From a bacterium (GTDB lineage: Archaea > Thermoplasmatota > E2 > JACPAO01 > JAHFTW01): DNA of 64,000 bases. This document shows, in pieces, positions 8,428-51,295 of this stretch. Location: assembly GCA_040390065.1 (NCBI GenBank), contig JAZJZE010000001.1:294718-358717 (forward strand), given 5' to 3'. The notes below the pieces were generated by a model, which made no database searches, was not told where the DNA came from, and worked only from the letters and a program-made list of their open reading frames with translations. The translations under genes and the position numbers were made by a program. Numbering within the stretch: the first letter of the stretch is position 1; every line of letters starts with the position of its first letter.

Positions 8428-8590
8428 GTGCGCCTGACGGGAATCGAACTCGTTCTGCGGCCCGGTGCTGCGCACCGGCCCGTCGCCAAGCCGCGGCTGC
8501 GCGTCGCGGCGGGCTGAACGGGTTCGCTTCCCAGCCAGTGCCCTGCCGCGTGGCGGCCGGCCGCTTCGCGGCGCCTTCGCCTGCGGGTAG
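8428..8590 (-). repeat. 162-bp insert at the tRNA-Gly 3' end (direct copy, mirror copy, hairpins)
   Basis: 8428-8455 matches 8590-8617 at 27/28; 8515-8532 is an inverted copy of the T-arm (17/18); GCCGCTTCGCGGC hairpin near 8560. Confidence 0.85.
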
Positions 8591-8661
8591 TGCGCCTGAC
8601 GGGAATCGAACCCGTTCAAGCAGCTTGGGAAGCTGCTGTCATACCATTAGACCACAGGCGC
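8591..8661 (-). tRNA. tRNA-Gly (CCC)
   Basis: 71-nt cloverleaf: GCGCCTG acceptor, GCAGC-TTCCCAA-GCTGC anticodon arm, ACGGG-TTCGATT-CCCGT T arm; CCA not encoded. Confidence 0.97.
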
Positions 8662-8796
8662 GCAGGGCCGTCGAGGAAGGAGGGCTACAAGAGCGAAATG
8701 GTCGCCGGTCTGGCGCCGGTGCAATCCCAACCATGACGGGGGCTATCTTGACGTTGGACTCCCAACCTTCATGACCCGCGGCGCGACTTGGCCGGC

Positions 8797-9330
8797 ATGC
8801 AGGGCCGTCGTGGCGCCATTCTCGCGGTGGCCGCGGCACTGTTGCTGGTGGCCGTCGAGGCCGTGAGCTGGATCCTGCCGGGGGGCGAACGCCGCGACCT
8901 GCGTCTCTTGCTGGACCTAGTGCTCGCGCTGCCCGCCTGCGCCCTGGCCGTCTTTTATTTGGCCTTCCGCGAGAGTAGCCTGCCGCTGTCCGTCGTTGCG
9001 TTGGCGGTCGCGACGTTCGGCTTCTATGGTTTGGGCACCATCTACGACTTCACCGCGAAGGGCAATGCAGGCTCGCCGCTCGACTTGTGGTTAGCCGTGC
9101 ACGCCGTCGGCGCCGTCGGGATGGCCCTCATCGGCTGGAACCTGGCATCGCTGGGTCGGGCGCTGGCTTGGACGACGGCCGTCGGATTTGTGGCGCTGGT
9201 CTTCTGGCAGACGCACGTGCTGCTGTCGGCGACGTGGTTCCTCGCTTCGCTTTGGCTGGCGTTGTCGCCGCAGTGGCTCCGGGCCCCAGGTCCTGCTGCC
9301 TCGGCCCGCGAGCCTGCAACCGCTGGATAG
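8797..9330 (+). CDS. Hypothetical polytopic membrane protein
   Basis: About 6 hydrophobic helices; no recognised motif. Confidence 0.65.
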   Translation: MQGRRGAILAVAAALLLVAVEAVSWILPGGERRDLRLLLDLVLALPACALAVFYLAFRESSLPLSVVALAVATFGFYGLGTIYDFTAKGNAGSPLDLWLAVHAVGAVGMALIGWNLASLGRALAWTTAVGFVALVFWQTHVLLSATWFLASLWLALSPQWLRAPGPAASAREPATAG

Positions 9331-9380
9331 CCAAGCGGTTTCACCGGCAAGACTATCGCGGTCCGGAGCGCGCTCGGGGC

Positions 9381-9902
9381 ATGCAAGCCCGGGGAATCTA
9401 CGCCCTCCTGCTGGCCGCCTGCATCGCCGGCTGGATCTTCTCGTTCTGGGCAGGACTCCCAATCCAGCTGGTCTTCCTGCTTGGGGCGGTCGCCTCGCTC
9501 TTCGCCCTGGCGGCGACGGAGCACCAGGACCGGCAGGGTTGGTACTTGGGCCGCTCCGGCGTCTTCGGTCTGCTCAGCGCGTTCGGTCTCTTGATGGGGC
9601 CGTTTGCACCCTTGGCCCTGGTCCTCGTGATCCCTTCGCTTTGGTGGCTCGGCCAGTGGCTGTGGCACGCGTCGGCGGCTGCGGGCGGCAACGTCCTGCG
9701 CTACGGCGTCGCATCGGCCCTTTGCGTCGTGCTGTTCTTCGTGCTTGCCGCCGTGGCGCACAATCGCTTGGTCGGCGTCTACGCGCGCGCACTCGGCATC
9801 CCGCTGGCCATTGTTGCACCGTTCCTGTTCCTCGCATGGGCCTACCAACTGGGCCGCGCCCACATCGTCGGGACTACTGCCCGCCCCGCCACCCTCATGT
9901 AG
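9381..9902 (+). CDS. Hypothetical polytopic membrane protein
   Basis: About 6 hydrophobic helices starting MQARGIYALLL. Confidence 0.65.
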   Translation: MQARGIYALLLAACIAGWIFSFWAGLPIQLVFLLGAVASLFALAATEHQDRQGWYLGRSGVFGLLSAFGLLMGPFAPLALVLVIPSLWWLGQWLWHASAAAGGNVLRYGVASALCVVLFFVLAAVAHNRLVGVYARALGIPLAIVAPFLFLAWAYQLGRAHIVGTTARPATLM

Positions 9903-9923
9903 AGCCCCCTCCTGGCGCGGCGC

Positions 9924-11315
9924 GTGGCCCTCTTCCGCTCCCTCCGCGACAAGCTGAAAGGCGTGTCGAAGAAGCTGGAGAGCGAAGTCGAGAAACAGCT
10001 CGGCGACGAGGTCGAACGCGAACTCGCCGCAGCCATGGCGAAGGACAAGGCGAAGGCCGCCGCGACAGCCCCCACCCAACCGCCGACGCCGCCGGTGGCG
10101 CCGGTGCCGGCGAAAGCGGAACCCGCCCGCGCGCCTGAGTCCGTCCCCTCGACCCCGCCAGCCCCAACCCCTGTGCCGGCCCCCGCCGCATTGCCGGCGA
10201 CGCCATGGCCCGCGATGGAATCGGCCGCACCGGCGCCATCGGTGGTTCCGGCGCCGCTTCCGGTCGCCCCCGCCCCGTCCCCCGCTCCAAAGCCGCAGCC
10301 ACCGCAACCTCCGCCGCAGGCCGGCCGCAAGCTCCTCACGGAGGACGAGATCTCGGCACGCCTCGAGCGCGAACTGTCGCAGGCGGTCGCCGTGCAGAGG
10401 TCCGTCGAGACGACCGTGCAGCAAGTCGCGCCGGCTGCGTCCCGCTTCACCATCAACGAGGACGTCCTGGAGGAAGTGCTGTGGGACCTGGAGGTCGGCC
10501 TCTTGGAATCCGACGTGGCGCTCCCCGTCATCGAGGCCATCAAGGGCGACGTCAAGGAGCAGCTTCTGTCGCTGAGCGTCAGCGGCAACGCCGAGCAGGT
10601 CGTGGAGCGCGTCCTGCGCACGGCCATCAAGCACGTCCTGCAAGTGAACCCCCTCAACTTCGACACGTTCGTCCGGGACAAGCTCGCCGCTGGCAAGCGC
10701 CCCGTCGTCATCATGTTCGTGGGCGTCAACGGCACGGGCAAGACGACGTCCATCGGCCGCGTTGCCTACCGCCTCAAGCAGCAGGGCATCTCGTGTTGCC
10801 TTGCCGCGGGCGATACGTTCCGCGCCGGCGCCATCGAGCAGTTGAGCCTGCACGGCGAACGCCTCGGCGTCACGGTCATCCAGCACAAGGCGGGCGCGGA
10901 CCCGGCCGCCGTCGCGTACGACGCAATCGAGCACGCCAAGGCGCGCAAGAAGGACGTCGTGCTCCTCGACACCGCGGGCCGCATGCAGAACAACAACAAT
11001 TTGATGGACGAGATGGATAAAATCCGTCGCGTCGCGAATCCGGACCTGTGCATCTTCGTCGGCGACTCCCTGGCCGGCAACGACGCCGTCGAGCAGGCGC
11101 GCAAGTTCGACGAGATCGTCGACGTCGGCGGCGTCATCCTCACCAAGGTCGACGTCGACGCCAAGGGCGGCGCCGCACTTTCGGTCGCGTACACCATCAA
11201 CAAGCCGCTGCTGTTCGTCGGCGTCGGCCAGAATTACCCCGACTTGAAGCCGTTCGACGCGGACTGGCTCGTCAACCGCTTGTTCGGGGACGAAGAGGAA
11301 GTCCCTGCACCCTAG
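9924..11315 (+). CDS. ftsY: Signal recognition particle receptor FtsY
   Basis: GVNGTGKTT, DTFRAGA, DTAGR, TKVD, GVGQ motifs; Pro/Ala-rich linker in the N-terminal region. Confidence 0.97.
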   Translation: MALFRSLRDKLKGVSKKLESEVEKQLGDEVERELAAAMAKDKAKAAATAPTQPPTPPVAPVPAKAEPARAPESVPSTPPAPTPVPAPAALPATPWPAMESAAPAPSVVPAPLPVAPAPSPAPKPQPPQPPPQAGRKLLTEDEISARLERELSQAVAVQRSVETTVQQVAPAASRFTINEDVLEEVLWDLEVGLLESDVALPVIEAIKGDVKEQLLSLSVSGNAEQVVERVLRTAIKHVLQVNPLNFDTFVRDKLAAGKRPVVIMFVGVNGTGKTTSIGRVAYRLKQQGISCCLAAGDTFRAGAIEQLSLHGERLGVTVIQHKAGADPAAVAYDAIEHAKARKKDVVLLDTAGRMQNNNNLMDEMDKIRRVANPDLCIFVGDSLAGNDAVEQARKFDEIVDVGGVILTKVDVDAKGGAALSVAYTINKPLLFVGVGQNYPDLKPFDADWLVNRLFGDEEEVPAP

Positions 11316-11335
11316 TTCGCTTCGAGGTATTCGCG

Positions 11336-11437
11336 CATCGGTTTCATCTGTTCCATCCGTTGACGGCCGGCGCCTCTTGTCAACAGATGCAACAGATGAC
11401 GGTCGGAAGTTCGGTTGTTTCTGTTGTTTCGGTTGAC
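11336..11437. repeat. 9-bp-periodic palindromic element after ftsY
   Basis: catcggttt-catctgttc-catccgttg-ac; inverted gtcaacagatg-caacagatga; then ttcggttgt-ttctgttgt-ttcggttga-c. Confidence 0.75.
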
Positions 11438-11482
11438 GCGGAGACGGGCAATGCCTTTCAACAACCCTCGGGATGGCCGCGC

Positions 11483-12298
11483 ATGCTCCTGGCACCGCGC
11501 ATCCTGGCCGCCCTCGCCGTCGTCCTGCTGCTCGCGCACGCTGCCGCCGCCGGCACCGACAAGGACCCGGAGATCGTCGACGACCAGAACGACCAGAAGG
11601 TCACCGCCAACGGCTCGCCGACGCCGGTGGGGACGTGCGCGGCGGCCCCGCCGACCGGTTGCATCTACATCCCCGCCGACATCTGGACGGCCTGGATCGA
11701 GGAGACGCCGAACAGCCTGATGGTGAACATCAACCTGGCGCAAGCCCCGCCGTCGACTTTCGGCGACATTTCGTACGGCATCAACTTCAACGCGGGAACC
11801 ACGCTGTACGTGGCGAGCGCGACGGTGCATCAGGTCTCGCCAGCGGGCGACGGCCAGACCGTCCCGGGCGGCGTTGCGACCGCGGCGGAACTCGGCGGGA
11901 CCGTTCTCACGCTGACGGTCCCGAAGACCAACATCCCCGCCGCCCTGCCCGGCACGAACCTCACGCAGATCGTGGCCGCATCCCTCGGCACCGGCGGCCA
12001 GAGCGGCCAGGAGACCGTGAGCGACCGCGCCCCCTCCACCGCCTACGGACGCGAATTCAGGATGGCGCCGGCGGCGTCGAACACGACGGGCCCGGGCGGC
12101 AACCCTCCGGCAACCGGAAACACGACCACGAGCCACCCGCCGCCCATCACGGTCGGGACCCCGCCGCCGCCCGGCACCACGGGCCAGCCCAGCACCGGGG
12201 ACGACGGCACCAAGACCTCCCCCCTGGGCCTCCACGATGCGTTGTTCGCCATCCTGACGGTCGCGGCCTTCACCCGGCTGCGGCGTCCGCTCCTGTAG
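11483..12298 (+). CDS. Secreted/surface protein with C-terminal membrane anchor (paralog of the next gene)
   Basis: Signal peptide, AAGTDKDPEIVD…GGVATAA…LTLTVPK…DRAP domain, Pro/Thr linker, TM plus RLRR. Confidence 0.75.
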   Translation: MLLAPRILAALAVVLLLAHAAAAGTDKDPEIVDDQNDQKVTANGSPTPVGTCAAAPPTGCIYIPADIWTAWIEETPNSLMVNINLAQAPPSTFGDISYGINFNAGTTLYVASATVHQVSPAGDGQTVPGGVATAAELGGTVLTLTVPKTNIPAALPGTNLTQIVAASLGTGGQSGQETVSDRAPSTAYGREFRMAPAASNTTGPGGNPPATGNTTTSHPPPITVGTPPPPGTTGQPSTGDDGTKTSPLGLHDALFAILTVAAFTRLRRPLL

Positions 12299-12361
12299 GG
12301 CGGCCGGGAAAACATCCATGAAGGCTTTAAAACGGAAATAGCCTCAAGGTGCCCGGTTCCC

Positions 12362-13447
12362 ATGAAGCGCACCTCCGCAGCGCTGCTTACTGCCGCCTTG
12401 GTCTTCCTGTCCGCGCTCGCCGCGCACCCGGCGGCTGCCGGGACTGAGGCGGTGCCGGAAATCACGGATCCGGCAAACGATATCGTCCTGACGCCGGCGG
12501 GCACAGCCACCGCCGCGTCCTGCATTCCATCGGCGACAATGCAGCCCTGCCCGCAGTGGACTCGCATGGACACCGTCGCCGCGTGGATTGACAATGAGAC
12601 CGCCACGCTGTTCCACGCAAACATCAAGGTCAGCGGCGACCCGTCGTCGGGCGCCACCGGGTATTCCTGGTCCCTTGCCTTCCATATGAAGTTCAATGGA
12701 ACAGACTTCATCGCCTCGGCTTCTGCCGTTGGGGGCCAAACGGTGGGTGCGCCCACGGCGGGCGGCGTGGCCACGGCTGCAACTGTGGCGGGCAGCATTG
12801 TGACTCTGACGGTTCCAAAGGCCGCCCTGGCGCCGGCGCTGGGATCTGGTGCCAGGTTGACCGACTTGTACGTCATCGGGAATGCCATGACGCCGCCCCC
12901 CAGTCCGTCGCCCGGCGTGGTCCTCACCACCGACCGCGCCCCTGACGGCACGGCGTTCGGTACGCCCTACAACTTCACCATGACGGGCGGCAACATCACC
13001 GCCGGAGGCGCCGACTCCGATGCGGACGGCCTCAACGACACGTTCGAGCAGCAGTACTTCGGCAACCTGAACGAGACGGCTTCCGGCGACAAAGACGCAG
13101 ACGGCCTCACCAACTCGCAGGAGCAAGCCCTCGGCACGGACCCGACGAAGCCCGACACGGACGGCGACGGCTTCAACGACGGCGCCGAAGTCGCAGCGGG
13201 GACCAACCCCAAGGACGCATCGAGCCACCCGCCCGTTGCGCCACCGCCTCCGCCCCCCCCCGGCCCGCAACCGCCGCCTCCCCCGCCTCCTGGCCCCAAC
13301 CCCGATGACACGTCCGGAGCCGCCACGAGTCGCAGCGCCGTGGACAAGCTGACGGGCGACCCGCAGTACCTCGGCGTGGCCGGCGGCGGCGCGCTTCTCG
13401 TCATCGTGCTCTCGCTCATCGGCCGCTTCGGGAGGTGGGGCCTTTGA
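12362..13447 (+). CDS. Surface protein with TSP3-like Ca-binding repeats and C-terminal TM
   Basis: AAGTEAVPEITD…GGVATAA…VTLTVPK…DRAP; DSDADGLND / DTDGDGFNDGAEV repeats; poly-Pro linker. Confidence 0.8.
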   Translation: MKRTSAALLTAALVFLSALAAHPAAAGTEAVPEITDPANDIVLTPAGTATAASCIPSATMQPCPQWTRMDTVAAWIDNETATLFHANIKVSGDPSSGATGYSWSLAFHMKFNGTDFIASASAVGGQTVGAPTAGGVATAATVAGSIVTLTVPKAALAPALGSGARLTDLYVIGNAMTPPPSPSPGVVLTTDRAPDGTAFGTPYNFTMTGGNITAGGADSDADGLNDTFEQQYFGNLNETASGDKDADGLTNSQEQALGTDPTKPDTDGDGFNDGAEVAAGTNPKDASSHPPVAPPPPPPPGPQPPPPPPPGPNPDDTSGAATSRSAVDKLTGDPQYLGVAGGGALLVIVLSLIGRFGRWGL

Positions 13448-14226
13448 CGCCTGACCTCGAGCTCGAGCAGGAAGCCCGCGTAAGCAAGAAGACGGTCTAC
13501 GAGTACGAACCACCGCTCGAGCCTGGCCAGACCAAGACGACGGAGAAGACGACGACGACGAAACACAGCCACCTGCGCGCCAACGTCAAGCGCCGCCGCG
13601 GCCTGTACGCGCTCATCATCTTCCTGGCGCTGGTTGCCATCGCCGTCGCCATCGTCGACATCCTCGTCCTGCGCGGCGACAAGGACCCGGCCACGCTGGC
13701 AAGCAGCGACCGAACGATCGAGTACGCGGTCTACGGCATCCTGGCCTTGCTCTTCATCTGGGCCATCATCCTGTTCCTGTCGCGCCGCAGCGGCGACGAG
13801 CAGACCACCGTCGAGACCACGACGGAGACCGTCGAGGAGATGCGCGCCCGCCTCGAACTCGAGCGCTCGCTCATGCAATGCCCCGACTGCAAATCGGTCT
13901 TCCAGTTCGGCGAAGCGCACTTCCGCGACAACAAGCGCACCGCGTTCAGCTGCCCGGTCTGCGGCGTCTACAGCCGGCTGCCCGACCCGGCCATGGAGCC
14001 GGTCAAGGTCCTGCGCCCGGAAGGCGAGTTCAAGGAACTGCAGTACCACTGCACGAACTGCGACGAGGACCTCGCCGTCGGAACCTTCGGCGAGACGCCG
14101 CTGCATCTGGTGCGGTTCCGCGCCTGCCCGAGCTGCGGCGAACGCGGCTTCATCGAGCGCATCGGCAGCGTCCCCCCCATGGGCGTCGGCCCCGCGCCGG
14201 ACGACGGCGGCTTCACCGCGGCCTAG
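13444..14226 (+). CDS. Membrane protein with cytoplasmic multi-zinc-ribbon (4x CxxC)
   Basis: Two TM helices then CPDC, CPVC, CTNC, CPSC; TTG start overlaps the upstream TGA. Confidence 0.75.
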   Translation: MTPDLELEQEARVSKKTVYEYEPPLEPGQTKTTEKTTTTKHSHLRANVKRRRGLYALIIFLALVAIAVAIVDILVLRGDKDPATLASSDRTIEYAVYGILALLFIWAIILFLSRRSGDEQTTVETTTETVEEMRARLELERSLMQCPDCKSVFQFGEAHFRDNKRTAFSCPVCGVYSRLPDPAMEPVKVLRPEGEFKELQYHCTNCDEDLAVGTFGETPLHLVRFRACPSCGERGFIERIGSVPPMGVGPAPDDGGFTAA

Positions 14227-14228
14227 GC

Positions 14229-18619: not shown

Positions 18620-18731
18620 GCGTCCGTTTTCGAAACCGGCCGTAGCGAAGCGCAAGCCCGTTTCGGCGGGTGGCCGAAGGCCGCCCCCGACGAAGTGGGT
18701 TCGAGCGAAGCGAAGAACCCGCTTCGTCGCT
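18620..18731. repeat. Cluster of GC hairpins with GCGAAGC/GAA loops after the aEF-1beta stop
   Basis: cgacgaagtgggttc…gagcgaagcga…gaacccgcttcgtcg; cccgtttcggcggg; ggccgaaggcc; gtagcgaagcg. Confidence 0.7.
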
Positions 18732-19004
18732 CTACATCAAACGTCCCATGTCCAGCAAATCCGCGCCCTGGATCCCGGGCAGCGACGTGAGGGCCTGCTC
18801 GACGAGGTCGTTGTTGCCTTCGACGTCCTGCACGATGATGGCGACCACGAGGACCTTCATGCCGAAGACGAAGGGCTGGATGTCCGCCTTGGAGACGCGG
18901 CCGACGTTGGCCGGGATGGCTGCGCGCACGGCGGCTTCCATCTTCGACATGTCCGTCGAGGAGTCTTCCGGCGTCAGGCGGTACTTGAGGAGGACTTCTC
19001 CCAT
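18732..19004 (-). CDS. ef1b: Elongation factor 1-beta
   Basis: MGEVLLKYRLTPED…PFVFGMKVL…GRLM typical of aEF-1beta. Confidence 0.92.
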   Translation of the reverse strand: MGEVLLKYRLTPEDSSTDMSKMEAAVRAAIPANVGRVSKADIQPFVFGMKVLVVAIIVQDVEGNNDLVEQALTSLPGIQGADLLDMGRLM

Positions 19005-30991: not shown

Positions 30992-31415
30992 CTGGAACAC
31001 CGATTCCACAGAACCTCGAGGCTGAAGGCTCAAGCGGCTCTGGGCCTGTTGCCTCGTGGATCGGCCAGAATTCCACAGATGCACTGCCACCGACGCTCGC
31101 CGTCAGCGCAGGAAGTTCAACTGGGAAATTCTGGGGGGCGCCAGTCGAGCGAAGGCGAAACCGGCTCCAGCGTGGCCCAGAGAATTTCTGTGAAATCTGT
31201 GTTTGCCCGAGCCTGGAACACAGATTCCACAGAACCTCGGAGCTCAAAGATCAACAGACTGTTGACAATTTGCCTCATGGATCGGCCAGAATTCCACAGA
31301 TGCACTGGCACCGACGCTCGCCGTCAGCGCAGGAAGTTCATCTGGGAAATTCTGGTGCCAGGGGATAACGATTGCTTCAGAGAGTTCTGCGAAATCTGTG
31401 TCAAGCCCGGGGCCC
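30992..31415. repeat. Two tandem ~200-221 bp nested-palindrome (MITE/REP-like) units
   Basis: Units start at 30992 and 31213; 86-bp core 31049-31134 vs 31270-31355 with 3 mismatches; terminal IR cacagattccacagaa / ttctgtgaaatctgtg. Confidence 0.88.
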
Positions 31416-31498: not shown

Positions 31499-31978
31499 TT
31501 GTCTGACCTTTCTCTCAACATGGAAGCCATCGGCCTCATCGCCGAAGCCGAGAAACGCCTGCGGGCCCGCATCAAGGACGCCGTCGACGAAGGCGAACGC
31601 ATCGTCTTCATCACCGAGAAGGGCCACCTCGGCCAAGCCCTCGGCAAGGAAGCAAAGAACCTCGCGATGATGCGCGAACTTCTCAAGAAGGACGTCAAGT
31701 TCGTCGAGTGGGACGAGGACAAGCAAGTCTTCATCCGCAACCTGTTCAAGCCGTTCGACGTCGCCTCCATCCGCATGGAAACGCTGACGGTCACGCCACC
31801 CGTGGACCCGAACAACCCGGATGCCCCGGCGCCGGAGCCCAAACTCAAGATCCGCGCCATCGTCGAGGTCGAAGCCAAGGACAAGGGCAAGGCCATCGGC
31901 AAGCAAGGCCGCAACATCGCCTCGATCCGGCACATCGCGAAGCGGCACCACGAAATCGATGAGGTCCAGGTCATCTGA
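31499..31978 (+). CDS. nusA: Archaeal transcription factor NusA (2 KH domains)
   Basis: GQALGKEAKN and KGKAIGKQGRNI KH loops; position after rpl30e. Confidence 0.93.
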   Translation: MSDLSLNMEAIGLIAEAEKRLRARIKDAVDEGERIVFITEKGHLGQALGKEAKNLAMMRELLKKDVKFVEWDEDKQVFIRNLFKPFDVASIRMETLTVTPPVDPNNPDAPAPEPKLKIRAIVEVEAKDKGKAIGKQGRNIASIRHIAKRHHEIDEVQVI

Positions 31979-32103
31979 TGCGCGCAGCGCCAGATGTACC
32001 CGCCTCATCGGTTTCAGCGAGCCGAGCAAAGCGATGGCGAGCGGACGCTGCCGCTGCGCTTGCGCGGCCGCCGAGGGAGATCGACGAAGTGCAAGTGATT
32101 TGA
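31979..32103 (+). repeat. 125-bp insert at the nusA 3' end (mirror copy, hairpins, synonymously recoded direct copy)
   Basis: 31991-32015 is an inverted copy of 31952-31977; 32077-32103 GAG ATC GAC GAA GTG CAA GTG ATT TGA encodes EIDEVQVI*, like the nusA end. Confidence 0.85.
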
Positions 32104-45382: not shown

Positions 45383-46149
45383 GCGTTTTCCTCCGAGACG
45401 AAGATCCAGTGATAATCGGCGTCGACCGAGTAAGCGGCCACGGGCGCCATTCCGGCGGGGGCGGCGGCAACGGTGTTGGGCAAGGTGCCTTGCAGGCTTC
45501 CCGCGAGGCTCACGTCGCCGACCCCTTCGCGCGTGCTGGAGTCGAATGCGCCTGCCAGCCCGAGGCCCTGCCCGTGCATGCGCCAGTCGGCGGACGCCGT
45601 GTTGTGGCGCGCAGTCACGCCGCCCAGTCGCAGGTCGAGACTGCCGCCTGCAGTGTCTTGCACGGACCAATGCGCGAGGGCGCTGTCGGCGCTGCGGTCG
45701 ATGGTGGCTTGCTGGACGTTGAAGCCGAGCTCGCCCCAGCGGGCGGCCAGCAGCGCATTGTCGACGTAGCCTTCGAGCAGGAACAGGTCGGGCGGTCGGC
45801 TAGCGTCTGGCGGCGCGACCACGGCGACGAAGGTCATGACGATCCGCACCGTTTCCAGCACGGTGGCGTTGTCGAGCGCCGCGGATTTGCACTCGCCGAA
45901 CCGGGTCGAGACCGGATACACGTTCTCGGTCGTCGGATCGTAGGAGCGCAAGGAGTAGCCGGGGGGCAGGCGGGAGCGCACCGCGGCCGCGTCGACGGAG
46001 TAGGCGGCGTCGATTGCGGTACATCCCTGCAACCAGAAGTCCGCGCCGCGGCCATGGCAGTCCTCGCAGGCCTGGGCCAGAGGCAGGCGGTCCGGGGGGG
46101 TTGCGCATCCGGCCAGGAGCAGGCAGGCAAGTGCCACGCCCAGTCTCAC
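45379..46149 (-). CDS. Hypothetical lipoprotein
   Basis: LLAGC lipobox; coupled to neighbours by overlapping start/stop codons. Confidence 0.65.
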   Translation of the reverse strand: MRLGVALACLLLAGCATPPDRLPLAQACEDCHGRGADFWLQGCTAIDAAYSVDAAAVRSRLPPGYSLRSYDPTTENVYPVSTRFGECKSAALDNATVLETVRIVMTFVAVVAPPDASRPPDLFLLEGYVDNALLAARWGELGFNVQQATIDRSADSALAHWSVQDTAGGSLDLRLGGVTARHNTASADWRMHGQGLGLAGAFDSSTREGVGDVSLAGSLQGTLPNTVAAAPAGMAPVAAYSVDADYHWIFVSEENA

Positions 46150-47768
46150 GTCGAGGCCTCCGCCGTGGCCTCGCGGGTCGGGGGCGACAGGGTGGGGGCC
46201 GGAATGGCGGCGGGCGAGTCGACGGGCAAGGCCGCCATCCCGGCAGCCACGCGCCAGGCGACGGCACGGCCGTGTGCCACGCGCTCAAGCACGCCTTCCT
46301 CTTCCAGCAGCCGCGCGTGGTACAGGACCAGCGGATGCGACGTCACGGCCAGCCCCTGTTCCGTCCAGCTTTGGCGCAACCCTGCGTAGTCGATGGGCAG
46401 GGCGGATTGTCGCACGCCATTGTAGATGCGGGCCCGGATTGGATTGTGCAGGAGCGCCATGGCTTCGAGGTTGGCGGGCGGCGGATGCGCTCCACCGGCG
46501 TGCAGGAGTTCGGTCATGCCATCGAGCCGGCCGCCGATGGCTTTGGCTCGTTGCAGGACGCGTACATGGAAACGGGTGGTGCTCTTGCTGAGTCCCAGGT
46601 GGCGAGCCATGTCGCCGATGGAGGAGCCTGGCCGGCGCGCGACCTCGCGCAGGATCTCGGCGCGGGCCGGATGCGTGGTGGCGTTGCGGCGGTGCGCCAC
46701 GGCCAGTGCGACGAGGGCGGGGCCGCGCAGGATGAGGGCGCCAAGCCCAACGCCCGCCAGGAGCGTGGCGCCCGTGGCCAGCGCACTGCGGGAACCGAAG
46801 GCTGCGGCGCCGCCGACGCCCAGGTACGTCACGTTGCCAGCAAGGCTCCAATGGGAGGCCGTCTGCTCGTACGAGGCAGCGATGTGGAGGTCGCCGATCG
46901 CCTGGAACATGGCGGTGTCGGCGTCGTAGGATTGCGGTCCGATGTCGACCGCGCCCGTGACGCCCGTGAGCGCCATGTCGCCAACGGCGCGGCCGTCGAG
47001 GCTCGCGACACAGTGCCGCCAGGTGCCGGCAAATGCTGCATTGGCGGCGCCCGCTTTGGCAATCGCGACGACTTCGTGCCGCACGAGGCCGGGGCCGTCG
47101 TGGTTGGTGCCGGTCGTGGCAGCACCGGAAGACCATGCCATGGTCCCGCCGTGCAGAAGGACGGTGAGGCCACCGGAGGCTGATGGGATGGCCGACGGAC
47201 CAAGATCGGCGATGCCGCAGGCCCCGGCCGGCGTCGTCGCGGTGGCGTCGGTGTCTGGCAGGTAGCGGCCCTCCGTGAAGCCGGGCAGCGTGAATGGTTC
47301 GAGGCGCTGGTCGCCTTGGGCCTGCAGGGCGCCGACGTAAGGCGCCGACGACAGGAACGGTACGACGAGAAGGGTCGCAGGCACGGCCGGAGTACCCTGC
47401 GGGAAGAAAGACAGGTTGGGCGCGTCGCCCTCCGCAAGGACGGTTGGTGTCAGGGGTACACTTGTCGACGGCGTCGTCGTCTCCAAGTAGTCGAAGCGCA
47501 CGACGCGATAGTGCCAAGCACCCGATGCATCTAGGGCTTTGAGGCCGTCCCCGGCGCCGAGGAGAAGGCTGGCGCGCAGATGGGCTTCGCCGGAAACCTT
47601 GCCGTGCAGGGTCCACGAACCCGTCGCCACGACTTGGCCCTCCAGGTGCCCCGAATCGGCTGCGGCGGGGACCGGGGCGGCCATCAGGGCGACCACGGCG
47701 AGGCATGCCCCCACGACAGCGAATGCGCCGGTCCGACCGTGCACGAGCTTCCCACCAAATCGAGGCAT
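46146..47768 (-). CDS. Membrane-anchored protein with external domain and cytoplasmic winged-HTH domains
   Basis: Signal peptide, TM, HPARAEILREV…PG…LGLSKSTTRFHVRVL and a second wHTH (NPIRARI…LYHARLLEEEGVL). Confidence 0.78.
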   Translation of the reverse strand: MPRFGGKLVHGRTGAFAVVGACLAVVALMAAPVPAAADSGHLEGQVVATGSWTLHGKVSGEAHLRASLLLGAGDGLKALDASGAWHYRVVRFDYLETTTPSTSVPLTPTVLAEGDAPNLSFFPQGTPAVPATLLVVPFLSSAPYVGALQAQGDQRLEPFTLPGFTEGRYLPDTDATATTPAGACGIADLGPSAIPSASGGLTVLLHGGTMAWSSGAATTGTNHDGPGLVRHEVVAIAKAGAANAAFAGTWRHCVASLDGRAVGDMALTGVTGAVDIGPQSYDADTAMFQAIGDLHIAASYEQTASHWSLAGNVTYLGVGGAAAFGSRSALATGATLLAGVGLGALILRGPALVALAVAHRRNATTHPARAEILREVARRPGSSIGDMARHLGLSKSTTRFHVRVLQRAKAIGGRLDGMTELLHAGGAHPPPANLEAMALLHNPIRARIYNGVRQSALPIDYAGLRQSWTEQGLAVTSHPLVLYHARLLEEEGVLERVAHGRAVAWRVAAGMAALPVDSPAAIPAPTLSPPTREATAEAST

Positions 47769-47902
47769 TTATCACCTGTGGCGTACGGTTGTTGAACTCG
47801 GCCTCTTTCGGCCCAACGTATCTAGACAATAGTGCCCGGATTGGGCCCGCCCTGCCGTGTTTCGCAGTAGCCGTTCCGTTTCGGGCTTGATGGCCGCGGC
47901 GC

Positions 47903-49837
47903 ATGCCACACTTCCCCGTGGGCCCCGCTTCCCGCTGCCCTTGCAGCTTCGGGCATGGACATGGTCCCGACAAACGTCAAGACCAGGGCCCGAATCGTCA
48001 CCCTGTGGCTGTCCGCCTGGTGGTTGCATCCCTCGTCCTCTCGGCGGCCGTCGCGGGCGCTGCCCTTCCGGCCCCATCACCCTCGTTTGCCGGGGGGTCG
48101 GCGTACTCGCTGCACATCGTCTGCCCGACGTCGAGTGCCCTGCAGTTCAGCTCCTACTCGCGACCGACCTGTCCCGTCCGCATGGTGGATACGTCCGAGA
48201 TGCTTGGCGACCCCGCCTTGGCCATCGACCCGATGGACGGCAACAACCTGGCCATGGCGATGATCCACGGTGCGGTCGACGGCGGCGGCCCCACGGTGCG
48301 CAGTCGCATCGGCCTGCCCTTTACGACGTTCACGTCCAACGACGCAGGTGCCACGTGGGACGACGCCTTTTACCAGTCGCCGCAGGACCTCGGCAACGCA
48401 TACGGCGAGCATTCCGCTGCGGCCGTCGACCCGTACGGTCACGTCTACGTCGGTTCCACGTACGCGGTGGGCGAAAGGGGCGGCCCGTTCCGCTACACGA
48501 TCGGCGCGCAGAAGTTCGACAGCGTCGAGCAGGTGCGGCAGAAGCAGACGGGTGCCGACGGCTCGTACAACCTCGTCTACGTCGACCCGGTGTTCAAGGG
48601 CGGGAAGATCCGCCAGACGTGGTTCCTGTTCAACGCGGCCACGGACAACATGACCATGGTGTGGTTCGAGGACCGGGGCAACGCGCCGTCCGGGTCGGCC
48701 ACGGTACCCGGCGACGCCCCGCAGGCGGATGCCGATTCCTTGGATGTCCTTCCCGGCTACGCAGCGCGTCGACTTGCGCCGCCGCCCCACTCGTCACCGC
48801 CAGCCAGCAGCGTGGCGCCGCGTGGAACGATCGGCATCGTGTGGACGGGCGTCGGTGACAACGACACGTATCGCCGCCAACCCGTCGAGTGGTCCATCGG
48901 GCCGTGCAGCGGTGCAACGAATCCGGTGCTCTTCGAAGGCTGGCTGTACGTCGGCTGCCAGGCCGACCCGAAGCAGGGGGCGTTCCCATGGCATCCGGAG
49001 ACCCAGCCGGGCACGGTGGAGCTGTTTCGCATGGACCCCGACGGCGGCAAGCCCGTCTACATGGGGGCCAGTCCCATCGTTGGCGGCGCGCCAAAGCTGG
49101 GCGTGCGTTCGGATGGCCGGCTTGCCCTGTTGTCGGCCGGCGTCTCCTCGGCCAACGGCTTGGACCTCACTGGCGTCTTCGGGCACTACTCCGACGGACG
49201 CATCGACTGGACTGGCGTGCACTCGTACTCGGACGGCGTCACTCCTCTGGCCCGCGATGAACGCATCCTGCGCGCCAACATCCAGGACGTCCTGTACCGC
49301 GAGTACTCGGGCGTCGTGCACCTCATCCTGCGCGAGACCATCGAACCGGTGGGCATCGACGCCGTGCAGAAATCCATCGGCCCCAAGATCCGCAAGTGCT
49401 TCGTCGCCTTGGACGAGGATGGCGTCCTGGCCGTGCACCGACTCGACATCGGCAACGTGCTCAACAAGACGGACCCGTTCCTGAACTCGCAGCCCGAGAT
49501 GGCCTACGAGGACTTGAGCGACGACATCGTGCAACTCCCCGCCGCGCCCTTCACGTACAACGGCAAGGACCTTGGCGACACGTACCAGCGGGAATTCTTC
49601 GCCGTCGGCGACTACGGCGAGGCCATCTTCGCGGAGGTCGTGGAAGTGACCGACCTGCGCTTCGTCCCGCCCGTCCCCGTCATCGCGGCCGCCCCTGGCA
49701 TCCCCGCAGCCGCCGCGTCCGGAACGAGCAGCGCGCTCGGAGCCGTCGTCGGCGTCACCACCGGGGCCCTGCTGTTGGCCATGATCGCGGCGGGCCGAAA
49801 AACGGCGGTCGGCAGCATGGCGAAGATGCGCAAGTGA
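47903..49837 (+). CDS. Secreted BNR/sialidase-like protein with C-terminal TM anchor
   Basis: DPALAIDP and Asp-box SNDAGATW; TM plus basic tail; start may be GTG 48005. Confidence 0.7.
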   Translation: MPHFPVGPASRCPCSFGHGHGPDKRQDQGPNRHPVAVRLVVASLVLSAAVAGAALPAPSPSFAGGSAYSLHIVCPTSSALQFSSYSRPTCPVRMVDTSEMLGDPALAIDPMDGNNLAMAMIHGAVDGGGPTVRSRIGLPFTTFTSNDAGATWDDAFYQSPQDLGNAYGEHSAAAVDPYGHVYVGSTYAVGERGGPFRYTIGAQKFDSVEQVRQKQTGADGSYNLVYVDPVFKGGKIRQTWFLFNAATDNMTMVWFEDRGNAPSGSATVPGDAPQADADSLDVLPGYAARRLAPPPHSSPPASSVAPRGTIGIVWTGVGDNDTYRRQPVEWSIGPCSGATNPVLFEGWLYVGCQADPKQGAFPWHPETQPGTVELFRMDPDGGKPVYMGASPIVGGAPKLGVRSDGRLALLSAGVSSANGLDLTGVFGHYSDGRIDWTGVHSYSDGVTPLARDERILRANIQDVLYREYSGVVHLILRETIEPVGIDAVQKSIGPKIRKCFVALDEDGVLAVHRLDIGNVLNKTDPFLNSQPEMAYEDLSDDIVQLPAAPFTYNGKDLGDTYQREFFAVGDYGEAIFAEVVEVTDLRFVPPVPVIAAAPGIPAAAASGTSSALGAVVGVTTGALLLAMIAAGRKTAVGSMAKMRK

Positions 49838-49995
49838 GGGGCGTCGGAAGCCGCCGTGGCCATGCGGCGGCTGACGGGCCGCGATGCAACGCAAAGACCA
49901 TGCCATCGAGACATGCAATCGGTGGGCGCCGCCGGACACGCCCCGTGGCGCGAACGGTGAAACAACGCAATCCAGCAACGCCGTCGTCCAGGCGG

Positions 49996-50577
49996 CTAGT
50001 ATCCAACAGCCCCGCCGCGGATCCTGGGCCGTGGTCCGACCGTGTCCTCGCGGGGCGGGCCGCGCCATGTTCGCCAATGGAGCGCCACGTCCGTCGGTGT
50101 GAAGGAAAGACTGACTGTCATGACGAGCGGCGTCTCTTGCGTCCGCTCCATCCAAGCGCGAATCCATTTGGCTTCTGCGACGTCCTGTTTCATGTGCATG
50201 AGGGCACGGCCCCGCCAAACCTTCCATTCGATGACGGCCAACGGAAAATGGGTTGGCGTCCAGCTCGTGCCGCCCGACTCCCATGCGGTGCCATACGGTT
50301 CGGGCCAGATGACCAGGTCCTTCGCGATGGCGGCTTTCCGCTTGCCGTTCGTGGCGACGCCGTTGGGGATGCTGACCTCGATTCCGATCTGGCCGACGTC
50401 CTGCAGCGGGCTCCCGGCATGACCAACCTTGGGCAACAGGTGGCGGAAAACGAAGCGATTGACGGCCTCGCGTTCCCGCCCAACCCATCCGTCGCCCGCG
50501 GCATCCGCCACGAATTCCTGGAGTGCCTCTATGATGACAGTCTGCAGGGTGCGGCAGGATTCGGGGTCGCCCGCCAT
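49996..50577 (-). CDS. Putative PD-(D/E)XK-fold nuclease
   Basis: RERE helix, GIEV, KDLVIW and PLAVIEWK motifs; upstream part of the long ORF lies in repeat DNA. Confidence 0.6.
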   Translation of the reverse strand: MAGDPESCRTLQTVIIEALQEFVADAAGDGWVGREREAVNRFVFRHLLPKVGHAGSPLQDVGQIGIEVSIPNGVATNGKRKAAIAKDLVIWPEPYGTAWESGGTSWTPTHFPLAVIEWKVWRGRALMHMKQDVAEAKWIRAWMERTQETPLVMTVSLSFTPTDVALHWRTWRGPPREDTVGPRPRIRGGAVGY

Positions 50578-50656
50578 GGGGGAATGCCCGGGCGTGCTGC
50601 CAGCCACGCTCGGCCAAAGGGGAGCTCCACCATGAGGTTGACGCAACCTCGCGAGC

Positions 50657-51015
50657 CCGCAGCGTTCCTCGCCGCTTCGCGGCATCGGCAAACCTGTCCT
50701 GGCACCTACGACGTGCTCGCTTCGCTCGCGGTCTCAGTGCACAGGACAGGATTTGGCGCTGCGGCCGCGCAGGCGCAGCCGCAGCGTTCCTCGCCGCTTC
50801 GCGGCATCGGCAAACCCTGCCCATGCACCTGTCTGTCGCCGGCGGGCGCTCGGCGCCGCCGATGCGACGCGACTTAGTGCACAGGACAGGATTTGGCGCT
50901 GCGGCCGCGCAGGCGCAGCCGCAGCGTTCCTCGCCGCTTCGCGGCATCGGCAAACCCTGCCCATGCACCTGTCTGTCGCCGGCGGGCGCTAGGCGCCGCC
51001 GATGCGACGCGACTT
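50657..51015 (-). repeat. Tandem 140-bp units at the tRNA-Leu 3' end (2 full, 1 diverged)
   Basis: 50736-50875 and 50876-51015 differ by 1 nt; each has agtgcacaggacaggatttg (tRNA 3' end), a degenerate inverted copy and a GCCGCTTCGCGGC hairpin. Confidence 0.92.
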
Positions 51016-51017
51016 AG

Positions 51018-51099
51018 TGCACAGGACAGGATTTGAACCTGCGAACCACAAAGGAGAAGGCCCTGAACCTTCCGTCGTTGGCCACTTGACTACCTGTGC
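51018..51099 (-). tRNA. tRNA-Leu (CAG)
   Basis: 82-nt type II cloverleaf: GCACAGG acceptor, GAAGG-TTCAGGG-CCTTC, variable arm, GCAGG-TTCAAAT-CCTGT; follows rpoD. Confidence 0.96.
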
Positions 51100-51176
51100 A
51101 TTTGGGGAAAAGGGCCAGCCCTTGCGGAGGGCTGCATCCGGCCGACTTCAGGTTGGCACTTGAGGGTTGCGCCCAG

Positions 51177-51295
51177 GCGAACCACAAAGGGGAAGGCCGT
51201 AGCCCTCGGGCCATCAGGTCCGAGGGCGCGACGTGGACGCCGCGAAGCGGCGGCCCGGCCAACCTTCCGTCGTTGGCCACTTGACTACCTGTGCA
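51177..51295 (-). pseudogene. Partial tRNA-Leu copy with the anticodon replaced by a 62-nt hairpin insert and no T arm
   Basis: 51261-51295 is identical to 51066-51100; 51177-51198 matches 51041-51062 at 21/22. Confidence 0.8.

What the first reader, a model, noticed from the sequence alone, without database searches (positions are those of the whole stretch)
8428..51295. Candidate new system: short 'mirror-and-duplicate' inserts at the 3' ends of unrelated essential genes
Seen: three unrelated genes (tRNA-Gly, insert 8428-8590, 162 bp; nusA, 31979-32103, 125 bp; tRNA-Leu, 140-bp units at 50736-51015) share one layout in transcript direction. The order is functional 3' end, then a degenerate inverted copy of that same 3' end among GC hairpins, then a second direct copy of the 3' end. 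The hairpin vocabulary is shared: GCCGCTTCGCGGC near 8560, 50671, 50793 and 50933, its reverse complement at 51239, and GAGC(G/A)AAGCGA at 18703, 32024 and (reverse) 50717. At both nusA and tRNA-Gly the mirror matches the functional copy, not the distal copy, at the positions where the two differ. Established: integrative elements restore a target's 3' end and displace the old one; GCGAAGC forms an unusually stable ssDNA hairpin; REP/RAYT (HUH) and integron attC systems act on folded ssDNA. Inference: these may be non-autonomous, target-programmed mini-elements whose mirror arm folds onto the target end, mobilised in trans, and possibly creating entry points for accessory genes. Conserved gene order breaks at or next to all three sites. 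No recombinase is encoded in the window, so the mechanism is unproven.
Basis: partly seen in the sequence, partly recalled or inferred. Interest (0 to 1): 0.9.

Follow-up and report, generated by a model that had tools for sequence, protein, structure and literature searches.

The report
Mirror-and-copy mini-inserts at gene ends
An uncultured Thermoplasmatota archaeon and its relatives carry many tiny non-coding inserts at the ends of tRNA and housekeeping genes, each holding an inverted and a direct copy of that gene end, which look like a little-known kind of miniature mobile DNA whose enzyme is still unknown.

Summary
In this 2.68-Mb Thermoplasmatota MAG, 21 of 48 tRNA genes carry a partial direct copy of their own 3' or 5' end within 400 nt, against 1 control hit. 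At least 10 protein genes do so too.

The shared layout is: gene end (X), a small hairpin, an inverted copy ('mirror'), one or two GC hairpins, then a second direct copy of X.

- The mirror goes with the direct copy: 10/17 versus 1/28 tRNAs.
- Relatives have empty sites: nusA in 4 species, a Toprim gene in 10/10 read.
- At nusA, the copy next to the gene and its mirror are foreign; the distal copy is the native end.
- In 13 species the mirror tracks every synonymous site of the last nusA codons.
- Mismatches favour G·T on the sense strand, 36 versus 13.
- HUH (0/38 genomes), IS110 (5/38) and reverse transcriptase (1/38) do not explain it.

Best reading: miniature, non-autonomous integrative elements that replace a gene end and are moved in trans, probably by tyrosine recombinases acting on a folded strand. 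The enzyme and the intermediate are unproven. No description turned up in four literature searches.

The parts
8590..8661 (-). tRNA-Gly(ccc), functional. Its last 28 nt (8590-8617) are X_prox.
   Evidence: ARAGORN and Rfam RF00005, 67.9 bits; alignment
8456..8589 (-). Body of the mini-insert behind tRNA-Gly: GC hairpins including GCCGCGAAGCGGC, and the mirror at 8515-8532.
   Evidence: 17/18 inverted match; the fold pairs the tRNA's 3' part with the mirror, z = -2.7
8428..8455 (-). X_dist: displaced copy of the tRNA-Gly 3' end (27/28). It carries a G-to-A change in the T stem and abuts the stop of the convergent prefoldin gene.
31952..31978 (+). X_prox: last 8 codons plus stop of nusA (31499-31978); the 5' strand of hairpin P1.
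   Evidence: Pfam KH_5/KH_2; fold. It differs from the closest relative G007 at 7 of 9 third positions, against 36 of 141 upstream.
31979..32076 (+). Body of the nusA mini-insert: apical mini-hairpin, mirror 31991-32015, AGCGAG...GAGCGGAC module 32016-32046, long GC hairpin about 32047-32075.
   Evidence: the same module order is seen in 13+ species
32077..32103 (+). X_dist: displaced nusA end (EIDEVQVI*). It has 7 synonymous differences from X_prox and only 2 from the nusA end of relative G007.
51017..51099 (-). tRNA-Leu(cag), functional.
50737..51016 (-). Two tandem 140-bp mini-insert units (50877-51016 and 50737-50876). Each holds hairpin, mirror (GTGCATGGGCAGGGTTTG), GCCGCGAAGCGGC hairpin, GAGGAAC, a long GC hairpin and a 19-nt tRNA 3' copy.
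   Evidence: TRF period 140, 99%; fold z = -5.9
50640..50736 (-). Third, truncated unit: same hairpin motif at 50671 and a mirror-like GTGCCAGGACAGGTTTG at 50689-50705, with no distal copy.
51100..51295 (-). 5'-side insert. A displaced copy of tRNA-Leu positions 1-34 (51261-51295) and 38-59 is split by a 62-nt hairpin insert. About 77 nt follow, carrying the AAGTCGGC motif seen upstream of other tRNAs.
   Evidence: 34/34 and 21/22 matches; sequence read

Best explanation
These are copies of a family of miniature (about 60-210 bp), non-coding, non-autonomous integrative elements. They insert at the very ends of genes: the 3' ends of tRNA and protein genes and, in the opposite orientation, the 5' ends of tRNA genes.

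Each element carries its own replacement copy of the gene end (X). This is followed by an inverted copy of X (the mirror). The two form a long, imperfect, strand-specific hairpin. One or two family-specific GC hairpins follow.

Integration is Campbell-like. The crossover lies at the base of that hairpin. The gene then ends in the element's X, and the host's original end is left as a dead direct copy just behind the last hairpin. Repeated integration or unequal crossing-over gives tandem arrays.

The elements encode nothing, so they must be moved in trans. The most likely agents are tyrosine recombinases of co-resident integrative elements, or the host Xer enzyme, acting on a folded single strand as integron attC sites and CTX-phage attP do.

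Shown: the layout, its non-randomness, gain and loss between species, the foreign origin of the proximal copy, conservation of the hairpin with strand bias, and the lack of known transposases.

Inferred: the recombinase, the folded-strand substrate and a free intermediate.
For: Genome-wide and in relatives. Census of tRNAs with a partial copy: G000 21/48, G005 9/31, G017 5/33, G026 3/30 (smaller inserts with the same layout), and same-class G031 0/31.

Mirror and direct copy go together: 10/17 versus 1/28 in G000, and 5/7 versus 1/22 in G005.

Mobility:
- The Toprim-gene insert is present in G000 only; 10 of 10 relatives read are empty.
- The nusA site is empty in G002, G006, G008 and G010 and filled elsewhere, with double inserts in G007 and L143.
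- G005 has inserts at tRNAs that are empty in G000.

Foreign origin of the proximal copy:
- The last 27 nt of G000 nusA differ from G007 at 7 of 9 third positions, against 36 of 141 upstream. G000's distal copy differs from G007's gene end at only 2 positions.
- At the gene ending at C9:218305, 5 of 33 nt differ, all synonymous, and the mirror matches the proximal copy.
- In the GAPDH-like gene on C43, the outermost copy differs by 3 synonymous changes plus one changed codon.
- In tandem inserts, each mirror matches the copy it sits beside.

Hairpin constraint:
- In 13 species, 267 of 279 aligned cells pair, and 10 columns change on both sides, including all eight third-codon positions.
- A species' own X is the best partner of its own mirror in 12 of 12 clearly filled species.
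- G·T-type mismatches on the sense strand outnumber A·C-type 36 to 13, p = 0.0014.

Fit to tyrosine-recombinase integration:
- 3' copies start mostly in the T arm or T loop; 5' copies end near the D or anticodon arm.
- 5'-type inserts carry the upstream AAGTCGGC motif next to the working tRNA. The review passages read (PMC8371274) describe this for pTN3-like integrases.
- At tRNA-Lys(ctt), integrase-bearing elements (12.5 kb in all) and a 138-nt mini-insert share the same T-loop boundary.
- G000 has 6 tyrosine and 5 serine recombinase hits.

Other enzymes are lacking. Y1/HUH 0/38, RVT_1 1/38 and IS110 5/38 genomes in the order; no Cas1 or TnpB-type hit in G000.
Against: - More than 30 different targets in one genus, with only 6 tyrosine recombinases in G000, does not fit sequence-specific integrases. 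The same core module sits at many targets: core C has 26 copies, 11 of them flanked by different direct repeats. Different cores also sit at the same target. Re-targeting therefore looks easy.
- The two large integrase-bearing elements in G000 lack the mini-inserts' hairpin arms. The only trace is a 9-nt mirror at tRNA-Val(gac).
- A double-stranded circle of about 100 bp is sterically unlikely.
- In G011 the mirror (28 nt) is longer than the distal copy (15 nt). Many inserts have no distal copy at all: G005, G012, L132, L137-L139, L141, L144, L149.
- In core-C inserts the two X copies are identical or nearly so, as target-site duplication would also give.
- The sense-strand G·T bias fits an RNA-level role as well as it fits folded DNA.
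- MAGs are 65-94% complete, so a missing enzyme gene cannot be excluded.
Confidence: 0.42

Rival explanations
1. Guide-directed insertion with target duplication. The mirror acts as a guide that pairs with the target strand. An unknown nuclease or transposase nicks both ends of the paired region, and gap filling duplicates exactly the paired stretch. The targeting arm can be re-written, perhaps by copying a new target. On this reading it is a new class of self-programming element.
For: - By my reading of the sequences, the length of the duplicated stretch tracks the length of the mirror in most cases: 27/26, 32/30, 20/19, 19/19, 20/18, 15/14, 15/14 and 24/23 nt.
- Duplications are long and variable, 15-74 nt. 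Fixed-stagger transposases do not give this.
- One core module occurs at many unrelated targets, each time with a matched mirror.
- No known transposase family is present.
- Recent inserts have perfect mirrors: G005 tRNA-Leu(tag) 18/18.
Against: Simple staggered-cut duplication gives two identical native copies. Yet at nusA, at the C9:218305 gene and at the C43 gene the proximal copy plus mirror are foreign and the distal copy is native. A second event, such as allele replacement by homologous recombination, would be needed. No candidate enzyme is known. G011 breaks the length rule (28 versus 15 nt).
Confidence: 0.22
2. Passive scars: leftovers of full-size integrated viruses or plasmids whose bodies were deleted, leaving attL and attR arms side by side. 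They are no longer mobile.
For: - Classical integrated elements exist in G000 with the same kind of direct repeat: 92 kb at tRNA-Val(gac) with a 22-nt repeat, and 12.5 kb at tRNA-Lys(ctt).
- The positions of the repeats in tRNAs fit known integrase site classes (PMC8371274 passages).
Against: - Sizes are uniformly small and the module order is conserved at more than 30 loci and across an order.
- The same core sits at many targets.
- The mirror hairpin is conserved with compensatory changes.
- The large elements present lack these arms.
- There is a species-specific recent insert of only 74 nt plus its repeat.
Confidence: 0.12
3. Host RNA elements. The hairpin that swallows the gene's 3' end, plus the following hairpins, act in the transcript in termination, 3'-end protection or protein binding. 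They spread by local duplication and homologous recombination, not by transposition. At tRNAs, RNase Z could release each unit as a structured RNA.
For: - Sense-strand G·T bias of 36 versus 13.
- Compensatory changes across 13 species at nusA.
- Many nusA inserts have no distal copy.
- By my reading of the sequences, unit borders at tRNAs coincide with tRNA 3' ends.
- The AGCGA...GAGCG flanks of hairpin 2 could form tandem G·A pairs. This is my inference; the resemblance to K-turns is recalled, not tested.
Against: - Gene ends in general are not enriched for mirrors: score >=24 in 45 gene ends versus 52 internal controls among 3,554 crude ORF ends.
- Presence is patchy between close relatives.
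- Pairing would sequester the tRNA's own T arm and acceptor strand.
- An RNA role does not explain the direct copy or the 5'-type inserts in the opposite orientation.
- No RNA data could be laid: runs were contigs only.
Confidence: 0.12
4. RNA-mediated mobility (retro-insertion) or archaeal bulge-helix-bulge intron-like elements.
For: Variable-length flanking duplications are typical of target-primed reverse transcription (recalled). The strand bias fits an RNA stage.
Against: - RVT_1 was found in 1 of 38 genomes of the order and not in G000.
- All tRNAs are intact without splicing, and the full anticodon set is present.
- The predicted folds show no bulge-helix-bulge at the borders.
Confidence: 0.03

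Closest known systems
Tyrosine-recombinase integrative elements of archaea and bacteria that target tRNA or protein-gene ends (SSV-, pTN3- and pT26-2-like). Passages of the review PMC8371274 were read.
   Same: The element restores the gene end and the old end is displaced as a direct repeat. Repeat borders fall in the T loop, anticodon arm or 3' end. There are 5'-half targets where the tRNA is then read from element DNA. Protein-gene targets and tandem accumulation at one site also occur.
   Different: Here there is no integrase and no cargo, in 60-210 bp in all. An inverted copy of the target forms a hairpin with the gene end. There are dozens of targets per genome, and the same core module occurs at many targets.
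CIMEs, the cis-mobilizable elements of streptococci: att-flanked elements without recombination genes, moved by a related ICE. Only search listings were seen; the rest is recalled.
   Same: Non-autonomous, flanked by att-type direct repeats, in tandem accretion with autonomous elements at the same site. The tRNA-Lys(ctt) locus looks like this.
   Different: CIMEs are kilobase-sized, bacterial, single-target decay products of a known ICE. No mirror hairpin is described for them, as far as I recall.
Integron attC sites and cassettes, and the folded attP of CTX phage (recalled, not searched)
   Same: Recombination sites of 57-141 nt that are defined by an imperfect, strand-specific hairpin rather than by sequence. 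They occur in tandem arrays of units, are moved by a tyrosine recombinase, and carry no enzyme themselves.
   Different: attC stems end in conserved core motifs and go to one attI site. Here the whole stem is a copy of the individual target gene end. No IntI-type system has been shown, and the hosts are archaea.
REP/REPIN elements with RAYT, and MITEs (review listings; the rest is recalled)
   Same: Abundant small GC-rich hairpin repeats near gene ends, non-coding and in families.
   Different: No Y1/HUH gene in 0 of 38 genomes. The two ends are not inverted repeats of each other. Flanking repeats are long (15-74 nt), variable, and consist of gene ends.
IS110/IS1111 elements with bridge RNA (recalled)
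   Same: A nucleic-acid segment in the element is complementary to the target, and targets are programmable.
   Different: No DEDD transposase in G000 and in only 5 of 38 genomes of the order. IS110 gives no long duplication, and its guide lies in a structured RNA loop, not in a full inverted copy.

Membership tests
Integrative element (tyrosine-recombinase type, Campbell integration) | Direct repeats made of the target gene's end flank the element, and the gene stays intact | tested here: met
   21/48 tRNAs. Also nusA, the Toprim gene, the GAPDH-like gene, C9:218305, C5:78736, C5:313593, C9:577507 and C9:586133.
Integrative element (tyrosine-recombinase type, Campbell integration) | The copy that completes the gene is element-borne (foreign), and the outer copy is the host's | tested here: met
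   nusA: 7/9 versus 36/141 third-position differences from G007, and the distal copy is 2 nt from the G007 gene end. Differences are synonymous only at C9:218305. For many inserts with identical copies the test is uninformative.
Integrative element (tyrosine-recombinase type, Campbell integration) | Encodes its own integrase | tested here: not met
   The inserts are 60-210 bp of hairpins with no ORF. Recombinase hits lie elsewhere in the genome.
Integrative element (tyrosine-recombinase type, Campbell integration) | Excised circular form and a reversible reaction | tested here: inconclusive
   Only assembled contigs of 3 runs could be laid, and no empty-site joint was seen. Empty orthologous sites exist in other species.
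MITE | Terminal inverted repeats and a short target duplication of fixed length | tested here: not met
   The inverted copy matches the flanking gene end, not the other terminus. Duplications are 15-74 nt and variable.
REP/REPIN-RAYT | A Y1 (HUH) RAYT gene in the genome | tested here: not met
   PF01797: 0 hits in G000 and 0 of 38 genomes of the order, while controls hit.
IS110 / bridge-RNA elements | A DEDD (IS110) recombinase | tested here: not met
   PF01548: none in G000, 5 of 38 genomes in the order, 1 of 13 in the genus counting G000.
Retroelement (target-primed) | A reverse transcriptase is available | tested here: not met
   PF00078: none in G000, 1 of 38 genomes in the order.
Casposon / TnpB-type IS | A Cas1 casposase or TnpB gene | tested here: not met
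   PF01867 and PF07282: no hit in G000. Relatives were not searched.
Integron attC-like folded site | An imperfect hairpin that is conserved in structure, not sequence, with strand bias | tested here: met
   267/279 cells pair, 10 columns change on both sides. G·T versus A·C is 36 versus 13. The alignment was fitted to pairing, which favours the count.
Integron attC-like folded site | Conserved R'/R'' core motifs, an attI site and an IntI-type integrase | not tested
   No common core motif was seen by eye at the borders. No search for IntI was made.
Known RNA family (Rfam) | A match to a curated covariance model | tested here: not met
   Only the three tRNAs reach the gathering score in the window. 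Nothing credible at E <= 5 in 50300-51400.

The most novel reading that the evidence does not exclude
A previously undescribed class of archaeal mobile DNA: protein-less hairpin elements whose targeting arm is an inverted copy of the target gene end. The arm can be re-written for new targets. This would let one core module colonise dozens of tRNA and housekeeping gene ends, with integration guided by nucleic-acid pairing or by a folded strand rather than by a sequence-specific enzyme.
Probability: 0.3. Interest if true: 0.9.

Novelty: new variant of a known kind. Interest (0 to 1): 0.72.

Why it matters
If these inserts are what they seem, nearly half of the tRNA genes and several core genes (nusA, a Toprim protein, a GAPDH-like gene, a ferredoxin-like and a cupredoxin-like gene) of a soil and groundwater archaeal lineage end in DNA supplied by a parasite of about 100 bp. 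That would be the smallest integrative element type I know of.

It gives a concrete substrate for asking how archaeal recombinases, or an unknown enzyme, recognise folded or target-matched sites. It may explain why conserved gene order breaks at such sites. If the targeting arm turns out to be re-writable, it would also be of interest as a programmable insertion system.

The pattern also matters for annotation. Pseudo-tRNA fragments and short ORF-end repeats in such MAGs are not assembly noise.

Tried and rejected
- Rfam: no family beyond the tRNAs.
- Sequencing runs: only one run, probably the source, holds the nusA stretch fully, and RNA runs hold 5-6% of its words. Laying the Toprim-gene site on three DNA runs gave contigs only, with no empty-site joint, no circle and no variant. 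This says nothing either way.
- A first simple duplex score with shuffles gave only moderate z-scores for many loci because of the GC-rich background. I replaced it with own-versus-swapped, with/without-copy and mismatch-type tests.
- Scan of all crude ORF ends for mirrors: no general enrichment, so the mirror is not a general terminator feature. Of the 7 top hits, 3 are true inserts by eye; the others look like spurious antisense ORFs.
- Search for larger, cargo-bearing versions bounded by the same arms, using exact repeats of 18-90 nt spaced 0.4-40 kb apart: 232 pairs, mostly repeated protein domains, and none convincing.
- Bulge-helix-bulge intron reading: the folds show no such motif and the tRNAs are complete without splicing.
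- Assembly artefact: rejected, because the same layout recurs in MAGs from many separate records.
- Literature: four full-text searches gave no description of such inserts. In the archaeal tyrosine-recombinase review, 'remnant' and 'non-autonomous' occur 0 times. Supplements were not seen, and subscription journals are not covered.
- No covariance model was built, and the distribution beyond the class was not examined.

Full report
SETTING. The window is G000:C1:294718-358717 of a 2.68-Mb, 50-contig, 67% GC archaeal MAG that is 89% complete. Records with near-identical nusA genes are titled Thermoplasmata or Thermoplasmatota archaeon MAGs. The window holds rpoB/A'/A'', an L7Ae/L30e-family gene, nusA (KH domains), a prefoldin gene and an rpoD-type gene.

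OBSERVATION. All three sites are as described.
- tRNA-Gly(ccc), 8590-8661(-): a 27/28 copy of its last 28 nt lies at 8428-8455, and a 17/18 inverted copy lies between the two.
- nusA: its last eight codons and stop recur 98 nt downstream with 7 differences, all synonymous. An inverted copy starts 12 nt after the stop.
- tRNA-Leu(cag), 51017-51099(-): it is followed by two 140-bp units, each ending in a 19-nt copy of the tRNA's 3' end. A copy of its 5' part lies upstream.

The quoted motif positions are exact. One further hit, at 5426, lies in a coding region.

Folded as single strands, each site gives the same picture. There is a long imperfect hairpin (P1) made of the gene end and the mirror, with a mini-hairpin at its tip. 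One or two GC hairpins follow, and then the second direct copy, unpaired. The z-scores are -4.3, -5.9 and -2.7.

IT IS GENOME-WIDE. I searched with a 15-nt key, allowing at most 1 mismatch, 20-400 nt away on the expected side and strand. Of 48 tRNAs, 21 carry a partial copy of themselves: 16 have a 3' copy downstream and 8 a 5' copy upstream. The wrong side or orientation gave 1 hit (the looser BLAST view is). Several sites are tandem: Leu-cag, Leu-tag, Gly-gcc, Gly-tcc, Thr-cgt, Gln-ctg, Ser-cga and Ser-tga.

Protein genes are hit too:
- a Toprim protein gene (stop at C1:41367);
- a GAPDH-like gene (C43, two inserts);
- a ferredoxin-like gene (C9:586k) and a cupredoxin-like gene (C9:577k), both named from their C-terminal sequence and recall, not by a call;
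- C5:75134, C5:78736, C5:313593, C9:218305, C11:201611, C1:21987 and C2:89890.

The inverted copy goes with the direct copy. A mirror scoring >=21 occurs at 10 of 17 tRNAs that have a distal copy, at 1 of 28 without one, and in 12 of 225 shuffles. In G005 the figures are 5 of 7 versus 1 of 22.

The mirror is not a general feature of gene ends. Among 3,554 crude ORF ends, a score >=24 occurs 45 times against 52 in an internal control. Only the extreme tail (>=30) is enriched, 7 against 1, and by eye 3 of those 7 are true inserts.

FAMILIES. At least three core types recur.
- (A) Mirror, then GA..hairpin..GAGGAAC or AGCGAG..hairpin..GAGCGGAC, then a long GC hairpin directly before the distal copy. 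Found at nusA, most tRNAs, the C43 gene and C5:75134.
- (B) GGTTTCGAAAGGGGCG...GAGCCCCTTCGGGGGC. Found at Leu-gag, Tyr and C9:577k, and reversed at Val-cac.
- (C) A GGGGCC...GGCCCC hairpin plus GATCGACCT(N4-8)AGGTCG, lying 0-11 nt before the distal copy.

Core C has 26 copies in G000. Twelve are followed by a 16-mer that recurs upstream; one of these is an internal repeat, which leaves 11. The nusA insert and the tRNA-Leu units share 35 nt at 89% identity.

Inserts of the 5' type are the same cores in reverse orientation (read by eye). They carry, next to the working tRNA, the AAGTCGGC motif that precedes uninterrupted tRNA genes.

RELATIVES.

Census of tRNA loci. Only the 30 best loci per genome were fetched, out of 44-46.
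- G005 (same genus): 9 of 31, partly at tRNAs that are empty in G000.
- G017 (same family): 5 of 33, of which 2-3 are whole-gene duplicates.
- G026 (same order, other family): 3 of 30. The inserts are smaller (60-90 nt) but have the same layout.
- G031 (same class): 0 of 31.

nusA. I read 21 species whose gene end has at least 90 nt downstream.
- 13 have a clear mirror.
- About 4 more have a short or degenerate one by eye.
- G002, G006, G008 and G010 have none.
- A distal copy is present in only 7: 27 nt in G000 and G004, 24 nt in L143, 15 nt in G007, G011, G019 and L133.
- G007 and L143 carry two inserts in tandem.

Toprim gene. All 10 relatives read end at the same ...DDLQ* with no insert, so the G000 insert is recent.

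THE PROXIMAL COPY IS FOREIGN.
- The last 27 nt of G000 nusA differ from the close relative G007 at 7 of 9 third positions, against 36 of 141 in the 423 nt upstream. The 21 nt just upstream are identical. G000's distal copy differs from G007's gene end at only 2 positions.
- At C9:218305 the two 33-nt copies differ at 5 positions, all synonymous, counting stop to stop. The mirror follows the proximal copy.
- At C43 the outermost copy differs by three synonymous changes and one changed codon.
- In G007 the older, outer mirror pairs with the older middle copy (CATCTG) and the inner mirror with the present gene end.

So the copy that completes the gene and its mirror arrived together, and the distal copy is the displaced host end. 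An alternative is a short allele replacement that covered just X and the mirror. I cannot exclude it, but it needs two events.

THE HAIRPIN IS UNDER CONSTRAINT.
- Across 13 species, 267 of 279 aligned X:mirror cells are standard pairs. Ten columns change on both sides, including all eight third-codon positions of the last eight codons. The pairing-guided alignment favours such counts.
- Each species' own gene end is the best partner of its own mirror in 12 of 12 clearly filled species. Mean scores are 24.5 for own, 18.1 for swapped and 12.4 for shuffled.
- I used the 30 X:mirror duplexes that score >=21, out of 44 tried. Mismatches that would be G·T/G·U on the sense strand number 36, against 13 of the A·C type (binomial p = 0.0014). 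There are also 32 transversions, and the nusA rows are related to each other.

The structure therefore matters on one strand, either as RNA or as folded DNA.

ENZYMES. G000 has 6 Phage_integrase and 5 Resolvase hits, none in the window. It has no Y1/HUH, IS110, RVT_1, Cas1 or TnpB-type hit. In the 38 genomes of the order, Y1/HUH is found in 0, RVT_1 in 1 and IS110 in 5. MAG incompleteness applies.

Classical integrated elements exist in G000.
- A 92-kb element sits at tRNA-Val(gac), with a 22-nt repeat starting in the T arm and a Phage_integrase ORF about 1.7 kb from the attR-side repeat.
- At tRNA-Lys(ctt) there are about 9.5 kb plus 3 kb of elements carrying tyrosine and serine recombinases. 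A typical 138-nt mini-insert follows. All are bounded by copies that begin at the same T-loop position.

The passages I read of the review of archaeal tyrosine recombinases say several relevant things (PMC8371274). Such integrases use the anticodon arm, the T arm or the 3' end of tRNA genes. pTN3-like integrases use the 5' half, and the tRNA is then read from element DNA. Protein-gene targets also occur. The 3'- and 5'-type repeats found here fit that picture.

INTERPRETATION. The best-supported reading is a family of miniature, non-autonomous integrative elements that replace a gene end and are moved in trans. The hairpin formed by the element's own gene-end copy and the mirror is the conserved, strand-specific part. 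By analogy with integron attC and CTX attP, which I recall but did not test, it may be the recombination site in folded form.

Against a classical integrase stand the number of targets, the free combination of cores and targets, the lack of these arms in the large elements, and inserts without a distal copy.

The main rival keeps the mobility but makes the mirror a guide and the direct repeat a target duplication. On my reading the lengths of mirror and duplication agree in most cases. This rival alone does not explain the foreign proximal copies.

Scars of large elements, a purely RNA-level host function and retro-mobility are less likely, for the reasons given under the rivals.

GENE ORDER. 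rps12 lies on another contig than nusA in G000 (C3 versus C1). It is also on another contig, or 172 kb away (G002), in the nine relatives whose nusA place was listed (G002, G004-G006, G008, G010-G012, G015); for the others nusA was not placed (G003, G009), or, in G001 and G007, rps12 lies on another contig by G-handle contig number but the split or unassembled hit makes the comparison less clear. That nusA-rps12 adjacency is the archaeal norm is recalled. Sequences right after the distal nusA copy differ even between G000 and G004, which share the insert.

LIMITS.
- All genomes are MAGs.
- No RNA or raw-read evidence could be laid.
- Gene calls for the genome-wide scan were crude.
- Some reading of mirrors and module borders is by eye.
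- Four literature searches found no description, but they cover open-access text only and no supplements.

Noticed in passing
window 31002-31355: A 221-nt tandem duplication (about 1.6 copies) in the unusually long spacer of about 530 nt between the L30e-family gene and nusA. It is lower in GC and carries repeated ATTCCACAGA motifs. The same motif turns up downstream of a repeat at C1:130718 and after nusA in G002.
   Followed up: partly
window 18640-18740: A cluster of REP-like GC hairpins between genes, for example GACGAAGTGGGTTC-GAGCGAAGCGA-GAACCCGCTTCGTC. It holds the shared GCGAAGC motif but no mirror of a gene end and no direct copy.
   Followed up: partly
window 51201-51262 (-): The displaced 5' copy of tRNA-Leu(cag) is itself interrupted at the anticodon loop by a 62-nt hairpin insert that contains GCCGCTTCGCGGC. 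This is an insert within an insert, or an intron-like piece.
   Followed up: no
G000 C4:105117-118000 (L028 covers the start): tRNA-Lys(ctt) is followed by about 9.5 kb and 3 kb of elements with adjacent tyrosine and serine recombinase genes, then by a 138-nt mini-insert. All are separated by copies of the tRNA 3' end. A similar pair of recombinase genes lies next to tRNA-Met at C5:244-248k.
   Followed up: partly
G000 C11:34069-126105 (L027 covers the right end): A 92-kb integrated element at tRNA-Val(gac) with a 22-nt repeat. A 434-aa ORF with no Pfam hit abuts the right repeat, and a 466-aa Phage_integrase ORF lies about 1.7 kb inward. Nine bases complementary to the tRNA end lie 47 nt behind the tRNA.
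   Followed up: partly
G000 C1:220600-220730, C17:66850-67050, C11:126106-126300: A further repeat family (...CGCGAGGGCACTAGGGGGCGCTGCGCGCCCCCTAAGACCCCCT...) occurs behind tRNA-Leu(gag), behind tRNA-Thr(ggt), and just outside the right end of the 92-kb element.
   Followed up: no
upstream of most tRNA genes of G000, e.g. window 8662-8700 region and 51100-51150: A conserved upstream motif, TTAAAT-like box ... C(A/T)AAGTCGGC, lies about 10-35 nt before tRNA genes. It is probably the promoter or initiator. It also lies inside the 5'-type inserts.
   Followed up: no
G000 C3:88860 versus window 31499-31978: rps12 is not next to nusA in G000 or in the nine relatives whose nusA place was listed. In G026 (another family) it lies about 3.6 kb downstream of the nusA matches.
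   Followed up: partly
G000 C3:1-211, C31:1-415, C5:35, C19:197-510: Several contigs begin or end inside such tandem units, with periods of 78, 120 and 128 nt. The inserts therefore break the assembly, and the census is a lower bound.
   Followed up: no
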